Shown in pieces: positions 30 to 46,563 of a DNA stretch of 64,000 bases; the first letter of the stretch is position 1; every line of letters starts with the position of its first letter. A program made the position numbers and the translations under genes. The DNA comes from a virus. The notes below the pieces were generated by a model. It saw nothing but the letters and a program-made list of their open reading frames with translations. It was not told the DNA's origin and ran no database searches. The stretch is from the IMG/VR virus record IMGVR_UViG_3300016472_000923. One strand, given 5' to 3'.

Positions 30-1358
30 TTAGTTAGAAGCTTCTTCCCATCCAAAATTATACAGCACATCACCGTTGTTTTGGGTATAGGCCACCACGA
101 GACTCAAGGTATCGCTCACACCATCAACATCGCGGCCCAACTGTAATCTGCGTCTGACATCCTCCGATATTTCTACTTCGTCTCGGCTAGAACTCAAACC
201 ACTGTAGACCATAGTACCGTCACCGACCTGGAATCTAGCTTCATTGGTCTGCACCACTGAATTTGTGACATTGGCCCATTGGGTGTTGGCTATGGCGTTG
301 CTGGCATTGAGTATCAATTGGAACTGACCATATCTCACATCGATGGGCAAGAGATCGATCTGTGATGGAACCACGGCAGCATCAGGATAGGCATTGCCCA
401 AACGGATGCTGGCTAGATTGAACTTGACATTACCTGTAGGTACCTTGTATGCAGTGGTTCCATTGGTCACATACTGCACCGTGGTCACGGGATTGTAACC
501 ACCTTCTGATATCACGGTGCTGCAGATCTGCCGCATGGTGGCAGCACCGGCCGTAGCAGCGGTATTGGTTATCTCGTATCTGCAGTTCAAGGTAGCCGTG
601 GTCATGTACACATTGGTGTTGCCGGCCTGGTTGGCATGATTGAACACATGGCAGATATAGAATACGCCGTTGATCACGAATCCCACTCGCACTGAACCCA
701 CGCCTAGCCATTCTATGTCAGTCCAGAAGATCTGTGTCAGCGTGGGATCTAGTGTGATACCCGAAGGCCCCGACCCATCCATGGGGTCTTGGTTCCAATC
801 GGCCTGGGCTATGCGGGTGTTGACCACAGACCCCGTGACCGAACTACGGATCACCATGTAGAGATCCGCACCATCGGCTTCGAAATATACACCATTGCCG
901 GAAGTGAAGTAGCCCACTCTCTGCCGGCAACCTGCTTGCAAGGTGCCCATGGCAAAGGTGTTCATGATCAAGAGGCTTTTGCCGGGCTGATAGACCTGCA
1001 CTGTGCGACACTGGCTGATCACAGAGTCGCCGTTGGCACCGGTCACGGCCATGGTGAACGAACTGGAGTTGGCATCATAGGTGAAAGCACCAGACCCAGC
1101 GGTTTTCTGGGCAAACTGATTGCCATTGAGATAACGGTTCTGGCTGTCAAACAGCGTGAAGGGCTGGGTTACTCGCAGACGGCCAAACGCATCAGTGCCG
1201 GTGTTGCCATTGATTACAGTGTTGCCATAGCCCGAGGAACCTGTGGACACCCGGATGATGGGCTGGCCAGCAGCATTATAGTCCATGGCCTGATGCAGGT
1301 CATTGAGCTGATAGTTGGGAAACGGATGCTGGTAGTCAGTGGGCCCTTGGATGCTCAT
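30..1358 (-). CDS. Conserved phage protein, probably virion-associated beta-sandwich protein
   Basis: 442-aa ORF; TDAFGRLRV..PFTLFDS and IDIEWLGVGSVRVGF-type segments resemble a common large-phage family; ATGA coupling to upstream gene. Confidence 0.6.
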   Translation of the reverse strand: MSIQGPTDYQHPFPNYQLNDLHQAMDYNAAGQPIIRVSTGSSGYGNTVINGNTGTDAFGRLRVTQPFTLFDSQNRYLNGNQFAQKTAGSGAFTYDANSSSFTMAVTGANGDSVISQCRTVQVYQPGKSLLIMNTFAMGTLQAGCRQRVGYFTSGNGVYFEADGADLYMVIRSSVTGSVVNTRIAQADWNQDPMDGSGPSGITLDPTLTQIFWTDIEWLGVGSVRVGFVINGVFYICHVFNHANQAGNTNVYMTTATLNCRYEITNTAATAGAATMRQICSTVISEGGYNPVTTVQYVTNGTTAYKVPTGNVKFNLASIRLGNAYPDAAVVPSQIDLLPIDVRYGQFQLILNASNAIANTQWANVTNSVVQTNEARFQVGDGTMVYSGLSSSRDEVEISEDVRRRLQLGRDVDGVSDTLSLVVAYTQNNGDVLYNFGWEEASN

Positions 1359-4452: not shown

Positions 4453-5547
4453 TTACCAAGCCCGGCACGACCAGTAGCGTGCTTTGGTCCTTGGTCCTGG
4501 ATTGTCGCAGCGATGCCGGGCACGGAAACTACGCCGTCTCGCTGGGTCACTTTTTTTGATCTTCATGGTCTTCTGACCAGCACGTTTGGCCGAAGTACCG
4601 CCGTGACCAAAGTTTACTTTTTTCACATTACCAGTTTTGGGATCTTTGACATAGACTTTGAACTTCTTGACATCGCCACGCATGGGCTTGCCCAGAGGTA
4701 CTTTGCGACCACGATATTCGGCTTCGCCGATGGGATCTTCTTCACTGGTAGTATCATTGTCCACTCCGGTCTCTTGATAGCCGGTTTCTTGTTGGGTAGG
4801 ATCTTCGTCAATTGTGGTTACTTTATCAGTATCTCCGTCGGCGCCCACAGGAGCCAGTGCTGCAGCTTTTGCTGCCAACGGATCGGTGGTATTGGCTTCT
4901 TCTTCCATGCGTGTGCAGCCAGCCAATTCCAACATGCGGCTCATGAAATCTTCCGCTACAGGTTCTGCGGGTTCAGCCGGTGTGTCAATGTCACCATCAC
5001 CATAGTCGTCAACGATCTGATCCATCATGATCTCTAGGATGTCTTCCTGCTGATCGTCGGGGTGAAGCCGATTGTGTTGTGCTACCTTGGCAAACATGTT
5101 TTCGAGATAGGACTGAGTGGCCTGGCCCATCTTACCGTTGAAAGCATCATACAGCATGTCAAAGTCTTCGCTGCTGGCGATGTTTTGCAGGTCGATGTCA
5201 ATCTCGCTCATCACACCTTCGTCCAATTCTTCTTCTCGCTCGTCGCGTCCAGCACCGTAATCTTTGGTTTGTGGGTGAGTGTTAGGATCAACATCACTGT
5301 CTTCGTTGGTAAATCCCATAGCACGACTGTTGCCCACGGCACCATAACGAGCAATGTCTTCAACGATTTCGCAGCCAAAAGATTCAAGCAAGGCTGTCAC
5401 AGCATCGTCGCCGTAGATAGTCACAGAATCCTTTGAGGCTTCTAGCACATAGCTTTCTAAAAGACTGTCTGGTGCCAGTTCTATATCCAACTCGTCACCG
5501 GGCTGGATGTTTTCAACAAGATCGATATAATGTTTTAGTCCCGGCAT
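4453..5547 (-). CDS. Acidic protein with a basic C-terminal domain (RARH-C...YWSC), putative head/core protein
   Basis: Very acidic body; C-terminal EYRGRKV...KVNFG...RRRSFRARHRC...ARYWSCRAW, a domain seen in many phages. Confidence 0.65.
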   Translation of the reverse strand: MPGLKHYIDLVENIQPGDELDIELAPDSLLESYVLEASKDSVTIYGDDAVTALLESFGCEIVEDIARYGAVGNSRAMGFTNEDSDVDPNTHPQTKDYGAGRDEREEELDEGVMSEIDIDLQNIASSEDFDMLYDAFNGKMGQATQSYLENMFAKVAQHNRLHPDDQQEDILEIMMDQIVDDYGDGDIDTPAEPAEPVAEDFMSRMLELAGCTRMEEEANTTDPLAAKAAALAPVGADGDTDKVTTIDEDPTQQETGYQETGVDNDTTSEEDPIGEAEYRGRKVPLGKPMRGDVKKFKVYVKDPKTGNVKKVNFGHGGTSAKRAGQKTMKIKKSDPARRRSFRARHRCDNPGPRTKARYWSCRAW

Positions 5548-32811: not shown

Positions 32812-33501
32812 TTACGAGGTATAGTTCTCGACGATGGCCAACACATAGGTATCGTTGCCCTGTGTTCCAGAGATGATCTCTGTGCCTTCGTCTGTGAAGA
32901 AGTTCACCAGATACTTGTTGTTGGACCAGTCGATAGCATACTTGTTGGTCAGCTTCTTGATCAGGATGTCCGTGGAATCGCCATTGAAGATCGCGATGTT
33001 CATGTTGCCTTGTGTCAAAGCTGATGTGGCTTCATTAGCCAGTGTGCAAACACCAACTTCAAACGCTGTACCTGTACCCGAACCTGCTGCACCAGCCACA
33101 AAGATGTCACCAGCAGCAGGGTTGGCTTTGGAAGCACCACAGGCTGTCCAGTTGGTTGTGCCTACTGTGTTGATGATGTAGGAACGACCAACCACTAGAT
33201 CTTCGTCGTTGACCGATGTGGTATCAGCTACCAGATACTGGCGGCTGCCTTTTTGTGTGATGATGAAACCAGCGGCTTCAGCGGCACCAGGACCACCTGT
33301 GGGTAGATATACCTGAACACGCACCACTGGATAGGCTGCTGTGGCGATAGAACCACCACCTAGGTTGTTGGCACCACCTACCACGCCGATGAACTGTGAA
33401 GTGTTCAGCGTGTCGGGATAGACTGGATTTGTGAGTTCACCGACATTGTTGAAACCAATGTCTTTGGTTGTTGTTTTTTTAATCTTGAGAGGACGTCCCA
33501 T
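32812..33501 (-). CDS. Structural protein, possible head decoration
   Basis: MGRPLK start, QKGSRQYLV; strong SD; own late promoter and terminator. Confidence 0.6.
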   Translation of the reverse strand: MGRPLKIKKTTTKDIGFNNVGELTNPVYPDTLNTSQFIGVVGGANNLGGGSIATAAYPVVRVQVYLPTGGPGAAEAAGFIITQKGSRQYLVADTTSVNDEDLVVGRSYIINTVGTTNWTACGASKANPAAGDIFVAGAAGSGTGTAFEVGVCTLANEATSALTQGNMNIAIFNGDSTDILIKKLTNKYAIDWSNNKYLVNFFTDEGTEIISGTQGNDTYVLAIVENYTS

Positions 33502-33600
33502 TTGTTTTCTCCTTAAAGAAGTCCGATCGGGGTTCTAGCCCGTACGCGGTGGGGTTTAGGCGCCGCATAAAACGCAGGATCGCGTTGACAAGTATTTAGT

Positions 33601-42848: not shown

Positions 42849-43691
42849 ATGTCAAACAATCCCAACCCACTGAGCCAATTTTTCCGGCAGCCGGCCATCT
42901 ATATCCGCTTGCCCAGCGCAGGTCGCAACTGGCCCGCTGGGTCCATCGACATGCCTGCCAACGGTGAAATACCTGTTTATCCCATGACAGCCATGGACGA
43001 GATCACTTACCGCACCCCTGATGCCCTGTTCAACGGCGAGGCCGTGACTTCTGTGGTGCAGAGTTGTGTGCCCAACATCCGCGACGCATGGAGCATCCCG
43101 GCCTGCGATCTTGACACCCTGCTGGTTTCGATCCGCATAGCCAGTTACGGCAATAGCATGGACATTGACACAACTTGTCCTGCTTGCCAATCTGAAAGCC
43201 AGTATGGACTAGATCTACGATCAGTGATTGACAAGATCCGAGCCGATGACTACACCAAACCGTTGACCGTGGGTGATCTAACCATCTACTTGCGACCGTT
43301 GAATTACAAAGAAGTCACAGCCAACAGCATCCTGCAGTTTGAACAACAAAAAACCGTGCAAGTGCTGTCTGATGCCAACACCCCCGACGAAAACAAAGTG
43401 CAACAGATCAATCGCATGATGAGATCCATGATGGAGGCCACAGTCAATGTGCTTAGCCAAAGCATCAGAGAGATACGCACGCCCACAGCCGTGGTCCAAG
43501 AACCCAGCCAGATTCTGGAATTCATGCAAAAATGTGATCGTGCCATGTTCAATCAGATACGAGATCGAGTGATACAGATGCGGCAAGTCAGCGAGATACA
43601 ACCATTGAAGATGCGTTGTATGAGTTGCCAACATGAATACGAGCAAGCATTCACCTTGGACAATGCTCGTTTTTTCGTATCAGACTCCTGA
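42849..43691 (+). CDS. Baseplate hub / tail assembly protein, gp26-like
   Basis: IRLPS.G, PMTA.DE, D..L..IRIASYG, two CxxC motifs. Confidence 0.75.
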   Translation: MSNNPNPLSQFFRQPAIYIRLPSAGRNWPAGSIDMPANGEIPVYPMTAMDEITYRTPDALFNGEAVTSVVQSCVPNIRDAWSIPACDLDTLLVSIRIASYGNSMDIDTTCPACQSESQYGLDLRSVIDKIRADDYTKPLTVGDLTIYLRPLNYKEVTANSILQFEQQKTVQVLSDANTPDENKVQQINRMMRSMMEATVNVLSQSIREIRTPTAVVQEPSQILEFMQKCDRAMFNQIRDRVIQMRQVSEIQPLKMRCMSCQHEYEQAFTLDNARFFVSDS

Positions 43692-43711
43692 TTTCCAACG
43701 AGCAACAGATC

Positions 43712-43906
43712 GTGGCCATGGTAGATGGCATGGATCAGGAGTCAAAAGAAATTCGCCGTGAAGCATTGAAATTTGTTTGGTACATGCGTGGCGGTTTGAC
43801 TTACACCGAAGCCATGAATCTCAGCCACGGAGAACGAGAAATCGTTTCCGGAATCATCAAAGAAAATCTTGAGACCACGAAGAAAAGCGGATTGCCTTTC
43901 TTCTAA
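43712..43906 (+). CDS. gp51-like hub assembly protein, possibly made as a -1 frameshift extension
   Basis: WYMRGGLTY.EAMNLS..ERE; -1 frame is open back through the TTTTTTC at 43670. Confidence 0.6.
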   Translation: MAMVDGMDQESKEIRREALKFVWYMRGGLTYTEAMNLSHGEREIVSGIIKENLETTKKSGLPFF

Positions 43907-44348
43907 GAGACTTGCTGCGCAAGTCTGTTGATTTCGCTTTGCTCATCAACTAGTGTTAACTCTGAGCGAAGCGAAAGATTCGTCATCATCCAGATAAAGC
44001 GGTCACACTTAGCCCGTTGCCGGGCTAAGAAAAATGTGCATCATCCGAGTATCACAGTCACACAGCGTTAGAGCTACGGAACCAACTTGTTCCACGCAGG
44101 CGGTTGTCCGGTACCTGCTCACTCCGTCTTATCACAACGGCAACACACAGACCGTACGCTATCACGATCCACATGCCTGAGGTTTTTCTCCTCTCTTTTT
44201 GCCTTTTATCCTTTTCCAACAACCAAATCACAGGCCTTACAAGTGATCATCATCCCGGGGGGTAGTGGTTGAGTGCCCACGGGTGCGGTGGGTCTTCCGT
44301 CACTGTGAACCGTGGTTCCAGATCTAGGGCGCACGAGTTTGGCCTGCG
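43907..44348 (-). ncRNA. Candidate structured ncRNA (~440 nt) of unrecognised family
   Basis: About 10 stems, a GCAA tetraloop, a G-U-rich 14-bp helix that forms only on the minus strand, and a pseudoknot. Confidence 0.55.
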
Positions 44349-44789
44349 CTAGCCTTGACTACCTAGTTTGCCTTTGATGTGTGAGCCATGTACTCGAACC
44401 TGTATGTGACCATTGTAGTATTCGTCTGATTCCAGTACCTTGCGGGCGAATTGTTCACGAGCCTCTATATAACTGCATTCAGCCTTGCTTCGGCAGTAAT
44501 ACAATATCTCGCGTGTGAAATTCTCTGTGCCTAACTGCTTGACTTCTTTGTTCAACTCGTCGTTGCTGCCGTAGTATTCTTGCCAATCGCTGTCGATCTT
44601 GCTGCGTATCTTTTTTTTCTTTTTGGTGCCGTTTTTGAGTTTGACTGTTCGATATGTTGTTTTGCGGAACTTGCTGAGTTTCTTGCCTATGTATTTCTTG
44701 CCTGATATCTTATTCGTGATGAGATACACGAAGCCCACATACTCTTCGGGTATTTCGGTGATCTCTTGTGATTCGAACAGCCATGTCAT
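44349..44789 (-). CDS. Small GIY-YIG-like endonuclease with a basic insert
   Basis: GFVYLITN..SGKKYIGKK, YYGS, FTREIL, E..EQF, YYN. Confidence 0.75.
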   Translation of the reverse strand: MTWLFESQEITEIPEEYVGFVYLITNKISGKKYIGKKLSKFRKTTYRTVKLKNGTKKKKKIRSKIDSDWQEYYGSNDELNKEVKQLGTENFTREILYYCRSKAECSYIEAREQFARKVLESDEYYNGHIQVRVHGSHIKGKLGSQG

Positions 44790-44799
44790 TCATTGATAG

Positions 44800-46563
44800 T
44801 TATGCCAAATCTATGTCAGTATTATAAGAAGTAAATCCACCTTCTTTGACCACACGCAGGATGTTTTCCACCCGTCCAGCCAATTCGTCTCTGTGCGACA
44901 CAAGCCAAATGCTCTTGTTGCGCTCGCGACTCATCTTCTTAAGTAACGCAAGACTGTTTTCCACGCCTTGTGTGTCCATGCCCGAATCCACCAACTCGTC
45001 GATGAACAGCACATTGATCGGAGAATACAGACTTTCCCAAACATCTCGGAATGCCCACGACATTGACAGTATCAGTCTATTGCGTTCGCCGCGGCTGAGA
45101 TTGTCAAAATCAAGATCTCGGCCCAGCTCTGTGATCTCTACTGTGAGATCATTTTGGAAGATGACCTGATGAGGTAGTCCGATCCTATCCAGATAGTGTG
45201 TGAGGCGGTTGTTGAGATAAGAAAGATTCTGCTCGATGATCTTCTTGCGGATGAAAGAATCTTTATTGGTCAATAGTTTCAACAAGAAATCTTGATGTTC
45301 TTGCAACCGAGTGAGTTCGTTCAAGGTGTCATAAGAAACGACCTGTAGAGCCTGAGATTGCATGTCTAAAATTTGCTCGCCATAGGGATCGATCTCAGCT
45401 GACCTGTTGGTGAGATCACGACGCAACCCGTCGAGGCTGTTACGATGATTCAATGCTTGCTCGATGTCGTCATAGAACACTGTGGGCGCTGTGCCCAACT
45501 CACCGACACTGGCGATGGTGTCCAGATGCTCTTGACGCTGTGTGTCATTGGTCAGCATCTGTAGAGCTGCTTCCTGCAAGCTGTCTTGTTTGGCTTTTTT
45601 GATTTCGTCTTGTTTGTGATCATGCAGATCCTGGCCACAGGCATAGCACCGATGATCGTCGAGGGCAGCGATCTCCCGTTTCAGCTTGTCCACGGTCTTC
45701 TGCAGTTTTTCGTCATCGGCGTCAATCTGCCGTATCCAGCGCCGGGCTTCGTCGATCTGCTTGCGGCGTTGATGGTATGTTTCCAGATCGCGATGTGCCT
45801 GTATCTCTGCTTCGATGTTGATATTGGCCAGACCTGCGATGGCAGTTTCCAACTGATCGCAGTCTTCGGTCTGTTTTTTCAACCATAGAGTCTGGCGTTT
45901 TTTTAGACTTTCGATCTGCTCTTCGATTCTTTTATTCGCTTCTTGCACCGCGCGGATGCGCATTTCTTCCTGACCAATGGCATCTTTGGTTTCTCGGTTT
46001 ATTTCTTTGACTCGCTCTGCTCGTTCGCTCAGCAAGGTGATGCCCAGCAGTTGCTCGATCATCAATCGTTGGTCGTTGGCCTTCATGGCCAAAAACGGCT
46101 CGGTATAAGTGTTCAAAGCCAATACATGCTTGAACATGTCGTGTGTCATGCCCAAGGCCGACTCTATTGCGTCTTGCGTTTCGCGGCTATCGCCCTGGCT
46201 GTCATCTTCGGCAGCTTGTTCTTGATTGTTGACATAGAATTTAAGCACATTGGGCTTTCTACCCCGTTCTATTCTGTAATCGCGTCCGTTGATAGAGAAC
46301 TCTAAGCTGACCAACATGGCTTTGCCATTGGTCTTGTTGACTAGGTTGTCACGGCGGATGTTGGTTAGAGCTTGGCCATACAAGGCATAGGAAAGAGCGT
46401 TGATGATGGTGGTCTTGCCTGTGCCGTTCCTTGAACCATCGCCGCCGAGATCTAGATTTTCTCCCAGGACCAAAGTGAGGTCCTTGCGATCAAAATTAAT
46501 GGCCTGTGTGGCATTGCCCACCGACATGAAGTTTTTGACTGTGAGATCTTTGATTTGTATCAT
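44800..46563 (-). CDS. gp46: Recombination ATPase (Rad50/SbcC-like)
   Basis: NGTGKTT Walker A, CYAC hook, LSRGE signature, FIDE Walker B, SH. Confidence 0.93.
   Translation of the reverse strand: MIQIKDLTVKNFMSVGNATQAINFDRKDLTLVLGENLDLGGDGSRNGTGKTTIINALSYALYGQALTNIRRDNLVNKTNGKAMLVSLEFSINGRDYRIERGRKPNVLKFYVNNQEQAAEDDSQGDSRETQDAIESALGMTHDMFKHVLALNTYTEPFLAMKANDQRLMIEQLLGITLLSERAERVKEINRETKDAIGQEEMRIRAVQEANKRIEEQIESLKKRQTLWLKKQTEDCDQLETAIAGLANINIEAEIQAHRDLETYHQRRKQIDEARRWIRQIDADDEKLQKTVDKLKREIAALDDHRCYACGQDLHDHKQDEIKKAKQDSLQEAALQMLTNDTQRQEHLDTIASVGELGTAPTVFYDDIEQALNHRNSLDGLRRDLTNRSAEIDPYGEQILDMQSQALQVVSYDTLNELTRLQEHQDFLLKLLTNKDSFIRKKIIEQNLSYLNNRLTHYLDRIGLPHQVIFQNDLTVEITELGRDLDFDNLSRGERNRLILSMSWAFRDVWESLYSPINVLFIDELVDSGMDTQGVENSLALLKKMSRERNKSIWLVSHRDELAGRVENILRVVKEGGFTSYNTDIDLA

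What the first reader, a model, noticed from the sequence alone, without database searches (positions are those of the whole stretch)
43907..44789. Small GIY-YIG-like nuclease followed directly by a ~440-nt structured, pseudoknotted non-coding RNA: candidate nuclease-RNA system
Seen: this is by far the longest non-coding gap in a tightly packed window, and it starts at the stop codon of a 146-aa GIY-YIG-like gene. As minus-strand RNA it folds almost throughout. Stems include GCGCA/UGCGC-type pairing next to the stop, CCCAC/GUGGG, and CAACCA/UGGUUG enclosing AUCAC/GUGAU. A 14-bp helix (44143-44176) has 7 G-U pairs that would be A-C mismatches on the plus strand. Its loop AUAGCGU can pair with ACGCUGU (44062-44068) to form a pseudoknot. 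GCAGG/CCUGC and GGAAC/GUUCC arms form a junction, and CUUAGCCCG-GCAA-CGGGCUAAG carries a GNRA tetraloop (44008-44029). The protein has a very basic insert (KFRKTTYRTVKLKNGTKKKKKIRSK) and is too short for the long DNA-recognition tail of typical GIY-YIG homing endonucleases. Known: compact nucleases paired with an adjacent structured RNA exist (IscB/TnpB with omega/HEARO RNA; type III toxin-antitoxin). I recognise no RNase P, tmRNA or intron core here. Inference: a co-transcribed RNA that binds, guides or regulates the nuclease.
Basis: partly seen in the sequence, partly recalled or inferred. Interest (0 to 1): 0.85.

Follow-up and report, generated by a model that had tools for sequence, protein, structure and literature searches.

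The report
Extended Polynucleobacter-1 twin-box phage RNA
The gene-free gap behind a small nuclease gene of this uncultured T4-like freshwater phage encodes a real, knotted non-coding RNA of about 450 bases. Its first third is an orphan motif catalogued in 2010. The nuclease looks like a neighbour, not a partner, and the uncatalogued part carries one short word twice for a reason still unknown.

Summary
Window 43907-44354 (minus strand) is a conserved, covarying, pseudoknotted RNA.

- **Known part:** 44217-44354 is a full-length Rfam RF01718 (Polynucleobacter-1) match at 108 bits (cut-off 37). Weinberg 2010 already placed this motif downstream of one gene family.
- **Uncatalogued part:** the remaining ~310 nt match no Rfam family but are conserved in at least 150 IMG/VR phage contigs. 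On 65 sequences, 83% of cells pair against 66% in shuffles (0/500).
- **The ORF** is a SegE-type GIY-YIG nuclease (Pfam 1.9e-32) with an invariant catalytic set.
- **The nuclease-RNA system reading is weakly supported.**
  - In an RNA-first census, 71 of 86 loci have the nuclease directly upstream. Fifteen have another gene between them or no GIY-YIG in the locus.
  - A 302-kb, 85%-complete record with a divergent copy has no homolog.
  - Three cultured phages with the nuclease, the only ones tested, lack the RNA.
  - There is no guide-like segment and no protein-RNA co-variation.
- **Strangest feature:** two direct 7-13 nt boxes 55 nt apart are identical in 125 of 126 sequences, despite about 60 inferred coupled changes. 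No complementary partner was found.

This scan has reported the same RNA family before in other genomes. Function is unknown.

The parts
44349..44789 (-). 146-aa stand-alone GIY-YIG nuclease gene (SegE-type catalytic domain only; PHROG 447)
   Evidence: Pfam PF19835, E 1.9e-32, profile positions 1-123 of 123. PHROG 447, E 4e-37. Y22, Y33, G35, R93, E109 and N126 are invariant in 108 homologs.
43907..44354 (-). Whole structured RNA element (~450 nt). It fills the convergent intergenic region between the nuclease stop codon and the stop codon of the plus-strand 64-aa gene.
   Evidence: Among 80 nuclease-first loci, the 5' domain was found in 62 and the 3' part in 73. About 88 of 120 RNA-first loci carry the 3' part.
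44217..44354 (-). 5' domain, equal to the Rfam RF01718 Polynucleobacter-1 RNA motif. The UAG stop codon of the ORF lies just 5' of its first helix.
   Evidence: cmscan 108.3 bits (gathering score 37), model positions 1-141 of 141, E 2.9e-24.
44179..44193 (-). H1, a small hairpin with a variable stem
   Evidence: Compensatory changes are visible in alignment A1. MAFFT aligns it poorly, so the pair counts are low.
44142..44177 (-). H2, a 15-bp G-U-rich hairpin whose loop forms pseudoknot PK1
   Evidence: 14 of 15 pairs show double changes and 78% of cells pair. It is part of the minimum-free-energy fold.
44157..44162 (-). PK1 5' strand (the loop of H2), pairing with 44062-44067
   Evidence: 6 of 6 pairs show double changes and 93% of cells pair. 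These are among the top mutual-information pairs. RNAalifold picks this pairing by itself.
44062..44067 (-). PK1 3' strand
   Evidence: Same evidence as the PK1 5' strand.
44134..44138 (-). H3 5' strand (second pseudoknot), pairing with 44103-44107 inside the loop closed by H5
   Evidence: 88% of cells pair and 3 pairs show double changes. Pair 44136/44105 is U-A in 92 sequences and C-G in 32.
44096..44118 (-). H5 helix (44114-44118 with 44096-44100). It encloses the near-invariant 17-nt core that holds the H3 3' strand (44103-44107).
   Evidence: 89% of cells pair and 3 pairs show double changes. The invariant columns are listed.
44070..44125 (-). H4 (44121-44125 with 44070-44074), which encloses H5 and the lineage-specific insertion hairpin 44078-44092
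   Evidence: 90% of cells pair and 4 pairs show double changes.
44038..44061 (-). Twin unit 1: a conserved 5-nt word (44056-44060), a spacer, and box 1 (44038-44050; core 44040-44046)
   Evidence: Box positions are identical to box 2 in 125 of 126 sequences.
44008..44029 (-). H7, an 8-bp hairpin between the two boxes (GNRA loop in this window only)
   Evidence: 94% of cells pair and 4 pairs show double changes.
43983..44006 (-). Twin unit 2: the same 5-nt word (44001-44005), a spacer of fixed length, and box 2 (43983-43995; core 43985-43991)
   Evidence: Length from the start of the 5-nt word's flank to the middle of the box is 21 nt in 121 of 126 sequences.
43927..43950 (-). H8, a hairpin with a covarying outer stem, tandem G-A positions and a 2-bp capped tip
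   Evidence: Outer stem: 6 of 6 pairs show double changes. Inner 2 bp: 98% of cells pair.
43908..43926 (.). H9, an 8-bp hairpin at the point of convergence. It is terminator-like for the plus-strand genes and may also end the RNA.
   Evidence: Terminator scan, plus strand. 7 of 7 pairs show double changes.

Best explanation
This is a large (~450 nt) structured RNA of freshwater T4-like phages that works in its own right. It is made as the 3' end of the leftward gp46 (Rad50-like) / nuclease transcript.

**Shown**
- Its 5' third is the Polynucleobacter-1 motif.
- Its 3' two thirds form an uncatalogued domain with two pseudoknots around a near-invariant 17-nt core.
- A twin-box module follows, then two hairpins that end at the convergent late (baseplate) genes.
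- The GIY-YIG gene is its usual but dispensable upstream neighbour.

**Inferred**
- The folded domains hold two stretches, for which I found no pairing partner, at a fixed distance on either side of hairpin H7. These are the twin boxes.
- The boxes must match each other letter for letter. I therefore think they work by nucleic-acid matching: to a common strand, or to the complement of each other. Reading by a protein seems less likely.
- The RNA then acts as a scaffold or decoy for that partner during infection.

The cellular function is not known.
For: **It is a real RNA**
- RF01718 matches at 108 bits.
- The 3' part is conserved behind the gene in 73 of 80 nuclease-first loci and in about 88 RNA-first loci.
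- Covariation on alignment A1: 83.3% of cells pair against 66.5% in shuffles (0/500). The covariation score is 0.458 against 0.18 for shuffles and 0.09-0.135 for slid controls.
- G-U pairs fix the strand.
- No conserved ORF was detected, no conserved mini-ORF, and no tRNA or other Rfam family down to E 10.

**It is made with the upstream gene**
- It starts a median of 13 nt after the preceding stop codon in 92 loci, whichever gene that is.
- No sigma-70-like promoter lies in the ORF end.

**It is independent of the nuclease**
-.

**Twin boxes**
- Three polymorphic box positions are identical in 125 of 126 sequences.
- Parsimony gives 27, 16 and 19 changes, all joint.
- At least seven of the eight combinations of the three positions occur.
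- Rare variants also change in both boxes, even in distant members.
- A reader tolerant of all these variants would not enforce identity.
Against: - The transcript, its ends and its abundance are therefore inferred.
- No partner for the boxes was found:
  - in cis;
  - within +/-3-7 kb in 125 loci;
  - in the 87.7-kb record.
- The tree used to count changes comes from the RNA itself. Recombination among phages could inflate the counts.
- Nuclease adjacency in 71 of 86 loci, plus a second nuclease family (PD-(D/E)XK) in several of the exceptions, leaves room for a nuclease-linked role.
Confidence: 0.6

Rival explanations
1. Nuclease-RNA system. The RNA binds the domain-only GIY-YIG nuclease and guides, targets or regulates it, making up for the missing DNA-binding tail.
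For: - The RNA begins at the nuclease stop codon.
- 71 of 86 RNA-first loci have the gene directly upstream.
- The nuclease has an invariant catalytic set but no DNA-binding domain.
- The twin boxes call for a nucleic-acid matching mechanism.
Against: - The RNA occurs without the nuclease, including in an 85%-complete 302-kb record.
- The nuclease family is found in 500 cultured-phage records. The three tested (Melnitz, phiN3, S-SRM01) lack the RNA.
- No nuclease residue covaries with the box haplotype above background: maximum MI 0.81, only in the gappy C-terminal tail, against a control median of 0.78.
- No variable guide-like terminal segment exists.
Confidence: 0.12
2. Cis-acting 3' UTR element. 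It is a long-lived structured end that protects the operon mRNA from 3' exonucleases. With H9, it also insulates the early/middle transcription unit from the convergent late genes.
For: - It always abuts the preceding stop codon and fills the convergent gap.
- The terminal hairpin is terminator-like.
- Its position at the end of the gp46 cluster is kept whichever gene comes last.
Against: - A stabiliser or terminator does not need about 450 nt, two pseudoknots, a 17-nt near-invariant core or matched boxes.
- The minus strand has no U-tract after H9 in this window.
Confidence: 0.15
3. DNA- or R-loop-level element. The transcript stays annealed to, or re-anneals with, its template. A box in the RNA pairs with the complementary DNA strand of the other box. 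This could prime replication or mark a recombination site. The boxes are kept identical because a copy of one must pair with the complement of the other.
For: - Identity rather than complementarity of two direct repeats is what such copy-to-complement matching predicts.
- Mixed G/A states, which RNA-RNA wobble would tolerate, are almost absent at 1 in 126.
- An A/T-rich variable tract and stable mini-hairpins follow box 2.
- Earlier agents of this scan proposed an origin-primer role.
Against: - The RNA strand is not G-rich; skew is 0.03-0.11 across the family.
- All other conserved features behave as RNA helices with G-U pairs.
- The four fixed differences between the boxes are all transitions. 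I read these as wobble-compatible, which fits an RNA partner better than DNA identity.
- There is no replication data.
Confidence: 0.1

Closest known systems
Polynucleobacter-1 RNA motif (Rfam RF01718; Weinberg et al. 2010, PMC2864571)
   Same: Window 44217-44354 is a full-length, high-scoring member (108 bits). It comes from the same freshwater or estuary habitat and lies downstream of a conserved gene, as the authors noted.
   Different: The family model covers 141 nt. Here it is only the 5' third of an RNA of about 450 nt. The pseudoknotted 3' domain and the twin boxes are not in Rfam. The authors found no member in a sequenced, purified phage. Here the carriers are T4-like phage contigs.
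IscB/TnpB omega-RNA and HEARO RNA
   Same: A compact nuclease gene lies next to a large structured RNA.
   Different: The nuclease here is GIY-YIG, not RuvC/HNH. The RNA has no terminal variable guide, is separable from the nuclease gene, and gives no HEARO or omega-RNA Rfam match.
Type III toxin-antitoxin (ToxIN)
   Same: Repeated RNA units are kept identical within a locus, beside a nuclease gene.
   Different: ToxI is a tandem array of whole repeats upstream of an endoribonuclease toxin, which processes it. Here only two short boxes match inside otherwise different units. The RNA lies downstream, and the enzyme family is DNA-directed (family knowledge, not tested).
T4 gene 60 bypass element with the mobA homing endonuclease (recalled from memory, not checked here)
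   Same: Two matched short words about 50 nt apart flank a hairpin, next to a free-standing nuclease gene.
   Different: No reading frame crosses the boxes, and mini-ORFs are not conserved: 45 and 77 of 126 in frame. Matching extends over 7-13 nt, not one codon.
Large phage-associated RNAs GOLLD and ROOL
   Same: Large, ornate, pseudoknotted RNAs of unknown function carried by phages.
   Different: No Rfam match to either. This RNA is smaller, has different architecture, and sits in a fixed syntenic place in T4-like phages.

Membership tests
Rfam RF01718 Polynucleobacter-1 | Covariance-model score at or above the curated gathering score, over the whole model | tested here: met
   108.3 bits against 37; model positions 1-141 of 141.
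Rfam RF01718 Polynucleobacter-1 | The model's helices are present and covary in relatives | tested here: met
   All helices pair in the cmscan alignment. Covarying pairs were found in 126 homologs, for example 44345-44349 with 44329-44333 and 44243-44248 with 44226-44231.
Rfam RF01718 Polynucleobacter-1 | Lies downstream of the GOS11034 gene family (Weinberg 2010) | not testable with these tools
   It lies downstream of a GIY-YIG gene. That GOS11034 is this gene family is likely, but GOS cluster sequences are not on hand.
GIY-YIG nuclease superfamily (Pfam PF19835, SegE_GIY-YIG) | Profile match above the cut-off | tested here: met
   112.5 bits against 25; E 1.9e-32.
GIY-YIG nuclease superfamily (Pfam PF19835, SegE_GIY-YIG) | Catalytic residues: two motif tyrosines, Arg, Glu, Asn | tested here: met
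   Y22, Y33, G35, R93, E109 and N126 are invariant in 108 homologs. Equivalence to I-TevI residues is inferred from motif order, not from a structure.
Seg-type free-standing homing endonuclease | C-terminal DNA-binding domain and sporadic distribution | tested here: not met
   The protein is 146 aa and the profile covers residues 3-129. The gene is near-universal and syntenic in the clade.
RNA-guided nuclease system (omega-RNA type) | A variable guide segment at one RNA end, and obligate co-occurrence of RNA and nuclease | tested here: not met
   No such segment exists. The RNA occurs without the nuclease and the nuclease without the RNA.
Group I intron carrying a GIY-YIG gene | Intron core (P3-P8) on both sides of the ORF, and flanking exons | tested here: not met
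   No intron family matches down to E 10. The ORF start lies only 10 nt after the end of the gp46-like gene. The next gene is convergent.
Box C/D-like RNA | Conserved C-box and D-box words forming k-turns | tested here: not met
   The C-box-like word holds in only part of the family. Half the members have A at box position 9 and half have A at position 5.

The most novel reading that the evidence does not exclude
The twin boxes are a self-matching device. A box in the transcript anneals to the complementary DNA strand of the other box, or both boxes anneal to one fast-evolving guide or target strand. That would lock the RNA onto the phage DNA at this spot. It could then prime replication or direct a nuclease such as the neighbouring GIY-YIG enzyme. 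Either would be a new kind of RNA-DNA recognition module in T4-like phages.
Probability: 0.08. Interest if true: 0.9.

Novelty: new variant of a known kind. Interest (0 to 1): 0.55.

Why it matters
- Polynucleobacter-1 has been an orphan motif since 2010. The only paper that names it among those searched is the 2010 discovery paper.
- This work shows the motif is the 5' domain of a much larger, multiply knotted RNA. That RNA is carried by hundreds of uncultured freshwater T4-like, partly jumbo, phages at a fixed place beside the recombination genes.
- Two direct boxes stay identical through dozens of coupled changes. I know of no described RNA with this covariation pattern. It points to a matching mechanism, not a folding constraint, and gives a clean genetic test: mutate one box, then both.
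- The finding also warns against reading every nuclease-plus-RNA adjacency as an RNA-guided system.

Tried and rejected
**Searches that found nothing**
- tRNA or tmRNA: none.
- Any other Rfam family down to E 10 in 43700-44900: only a chance microRNA hit.
- blastn of the 1.1-kb region against 50,697 cultured phage records: no match.
- PDB sequence search with the nuclease: no match at E 1.

**Readings rejected**
- *Coding reading of the gap.* The longest internal ORF varies in place and strand.
- *Mini-ORF or gene-60-like bypass reading of the twin units.* The frame is kept in only 45 of 126 (unit 1) and 77 of 126 (unit 2) sequences.
- *A third strand inside the RNA pairing with the boxes.* The best MI with any other column is at most 0.37.
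- *A complement of the 7-mer at a fixed place within +/-3 kb.* None found.
- *Own-haplotype complement followed by the G-run predicted from the fixed box differences.* 3 hits against 1.6 expected in 1.04 Mb of loci.
- *A 12-nt perfect complement at window about 1249-1260, inside a 442-aa ORF* (chance about 0.02). That part of the protein is not conserved in five other long records, so I treat it as chance.
- *The third box-like word in the 5' domain (44245-44255).* It does not change with the twin boxes.
- *Co-variation of nuclease residues with box haplotype.* Not above background.
- *G-richness expected of an R-loop-forming RNA.* Absent.
- *Host clues from the genome collection.* True hits are phage contigs binned into MAGs of unrelated phyla. 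The rest are GC-rich chance matches.

Full report
**What is there**

The window is part of an 87.7-kb IMG/VR virus record that CheckV rates 25% complete. It carries T4-like genes:
- a tape-measure-like gene;
- a T4 baseplate-family gene (42849-43691, plus strand);
- a Rad50/gp46-like gene (44800-46563, minus strand);
- a radical-SAM gene.

The flagged ORF (44349-44789, minus strand) is a SegE-type GIY-YIG domain: Pfam E 1.9e-32, with the profile covered end to end, and PHROG 447. Y22, Y33, G35, R93, E109 and N126 are invariant in 108 homologs. It is probably an active nuclease that lacks any DNA-binding tail. The 442 nt up to the stop codon of the convergent 64-aa gene hold no ORF that looks conserved.

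**Part of it is known**

cmscan places a full-length Polynucleobacter-1 RNA (RF01718) at 44217-44354, minus strand. The score is 108.3 bits against a cut-off of 37. The stop codon lies just 5' of its first helix.

The supplement of Weinberg et al. 2010 says most members lie downstream of one gene family, with possible homology to a cyanophage P-SSM2 locus. It also says none was seen in a sequenced, purified phage. The gene-RNA adjacency is therefore a published observation, although the gene was not named there as GIY-YIG. No later paper in the library names the motif.

**The rest is an uncatalogued, real RNA domain**

The nuclease has 592 confirmed relatives in IMG/VR, and I kept 80 loci. The 3' 310 nt of the gap are conserved in 73 of the 80. 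The 5' domain is found in 62.

An alignment of 65 distinct sequences shows compensatory changes in nearly every helix. With a structure I wrote down from the window, counting gives the following:

| Measure | Structure | Shuffled | Slid controls |
|---|---|---|---|
| Cells paired | 83.3% | 66.5% (0/500 reach it) | 37-46% |
| Covariation score | 0.458 | 0.18 | 0.09-0.135 |

- A second pseudoknot (44134-44138 with 44103-44107) crosses the 44114-44118 with 44096-44100 helix around a near-invariant 17-nt core.
- Abundant G-U cells fix the fold to the minus strand.
- The GNRA loop and the 44078-44092 hairpin are particular to this lineage.
- The last hairpin looks like the terminator of the plus-strand genes.

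**Is it the nuclease's partner?**

I scanned IMG/VR for the 17-nt core and classified 86 loci that carry the RNA and have enough upstream DNA.

| Upstream context | Loci |
|---|---|
| Nuclease directly upstream | 71 |
| Another gene between nuclease and RNA | 7 |
| No GIY-YIG in the locus | 8 |

- One of the loci with an intervening gene carries a 308-aa ORF that looks methyltransferase-like by eye. I did not scan it against Pfam.
- In the GIY-less loci the upstream gene is a phage PD-(D/E)XK endonuclease (PF24608) or, once, an amidoligase-like gene.
- One GIY-less locus has a 115-bit RF01718 match.
- Five whole records around such loci have no homolog of the nuclease, including a 302-kb record rated 85% complete.
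- Conversely, the nuclease family is widespread in cultured phages: 500 records, mostly cyanophages, plus Methylophilales phage Melnitz, Sinorhizobium phiN3 and phiM12, and others.
- Melnitz, phiN3 and S-SRM01 have no such RNA behind the gene.

In 92 distinct loci the RNA starts a median of 13 nt (range -12 to +54) after the stop codon of whichever ORF precedes it. I read it as the 3' end of the gp46-cluster transcript. The nuclease is the usual last gene, and the coupling reflects synteny within a clade.

**Twin boxes**

Two direct units lie 55 nt apart on either side of hairpin 44008-44029. Each has a fixed 5-nt word, a spacer and a box of 11-13 nt (box 1 at 44038-44050, box 2 at 43983-43995).

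In 126 distinct sequences, three polymorphic box positions are the same in both boxes in 125 cases each:

| Position pair | Matched states |
|---|---|
| 44046 / 43991 | A/A 66, G/G 59 |
| 44042 / 43987 | G/G 62, A/A 62 |
| 44040 / 43985 | U/U 95, A/A 28 |

- At least seven of the eight combinations occur.
- Rare variants, and deeply divergent members, also change in both boxes.
- On a tree built from the rest of the RNA, parsimony needs 27, 16 and 19 changes, every one joint.
- The four fixed differences between the boxes are all transitions.
- No column of the RNA pairs with these positions.
- No complement was found within the loci or the 87.7-kb record beyond chance.
- A 12-nt complement inside a distant ORF is not conserved elsewhere.
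- Nuclease residues do not track the haplotype.

Identity, not complementarity, of two direct words implies matching through a complementary intermediate or a common partner. I could not tell which.

**Verdict**

- The nuclease-guide reading is not excluded but has little support.
- The best description is an extended Polynucleobacter-1 RNA, a new variant of a known but unexplained family.
- Earlier agents of this scan described the same family, with the same twin boxes, in other genomes. I reached the same points independently before reading them.
- The origin-primer idea raised by some of those agents gets no support from base composition here, but it remains untested.

Noticed in passing
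window 33499-33587 (-): Rfam RF02980 freshwater-2 RNA at 66.7 bits (cut-off 49.9). This is a second catalogued metagenome-derived RNA motif in the same phage.
   Followed up: no
L007, L008, L030, L032, L038, L043, L052, L054, L065, L071, L079 (between the nuclease stop and the 3' domain): A divergent subgroup keeps the 3' domain and the twin boxes. It replaces the RF01718 domain with a different stretch of about 120-150 nt that matches no Rfam family. Some members carry a third copy of their own box word there.
   Followed up: partly
L126:3963-4484 (+); similar ORFs in L105, L117, L154, L195: Where the GIY-YIG gene is missing, the gene just before the RNA is a phage PD-(D/E)XK endonuclease (PF24608, E 2.5e-29). 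Two unrelated nuclease families therefore take the same slot.
   Followed up: partly
window 1249-1260 (-), inside ORF 30-1358: A 12-nt stretch pairs perfectly, with wobbles, with both twin boxes. About 0.02 such hits are expected in the record. The protein segment is not conserved in five other carrier records, so I treat it as chance.
   Followed up: yes
window 43964-43976 and 43932-43944 (-): A 13-nt segment can pair with the 5' half of hairpin H8 as an alternative fold. It is absent from many family members.
   Followed up: no
window 43637-43906 (+): Another first-stage note proposes a -1 frameshift joining the baseplate-family ORF (42849-43691) to the 64-aa ORF (43712-43906). The two ORFs are adjacent in nearly all related loci.
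   Followed up: no
L171:3911-4304 and 5169-5240: A related phage contig that carries the RNA behind an amidoligase-like gene also encodes a permuted tmRNA and a tRNA.
   Followed up: no
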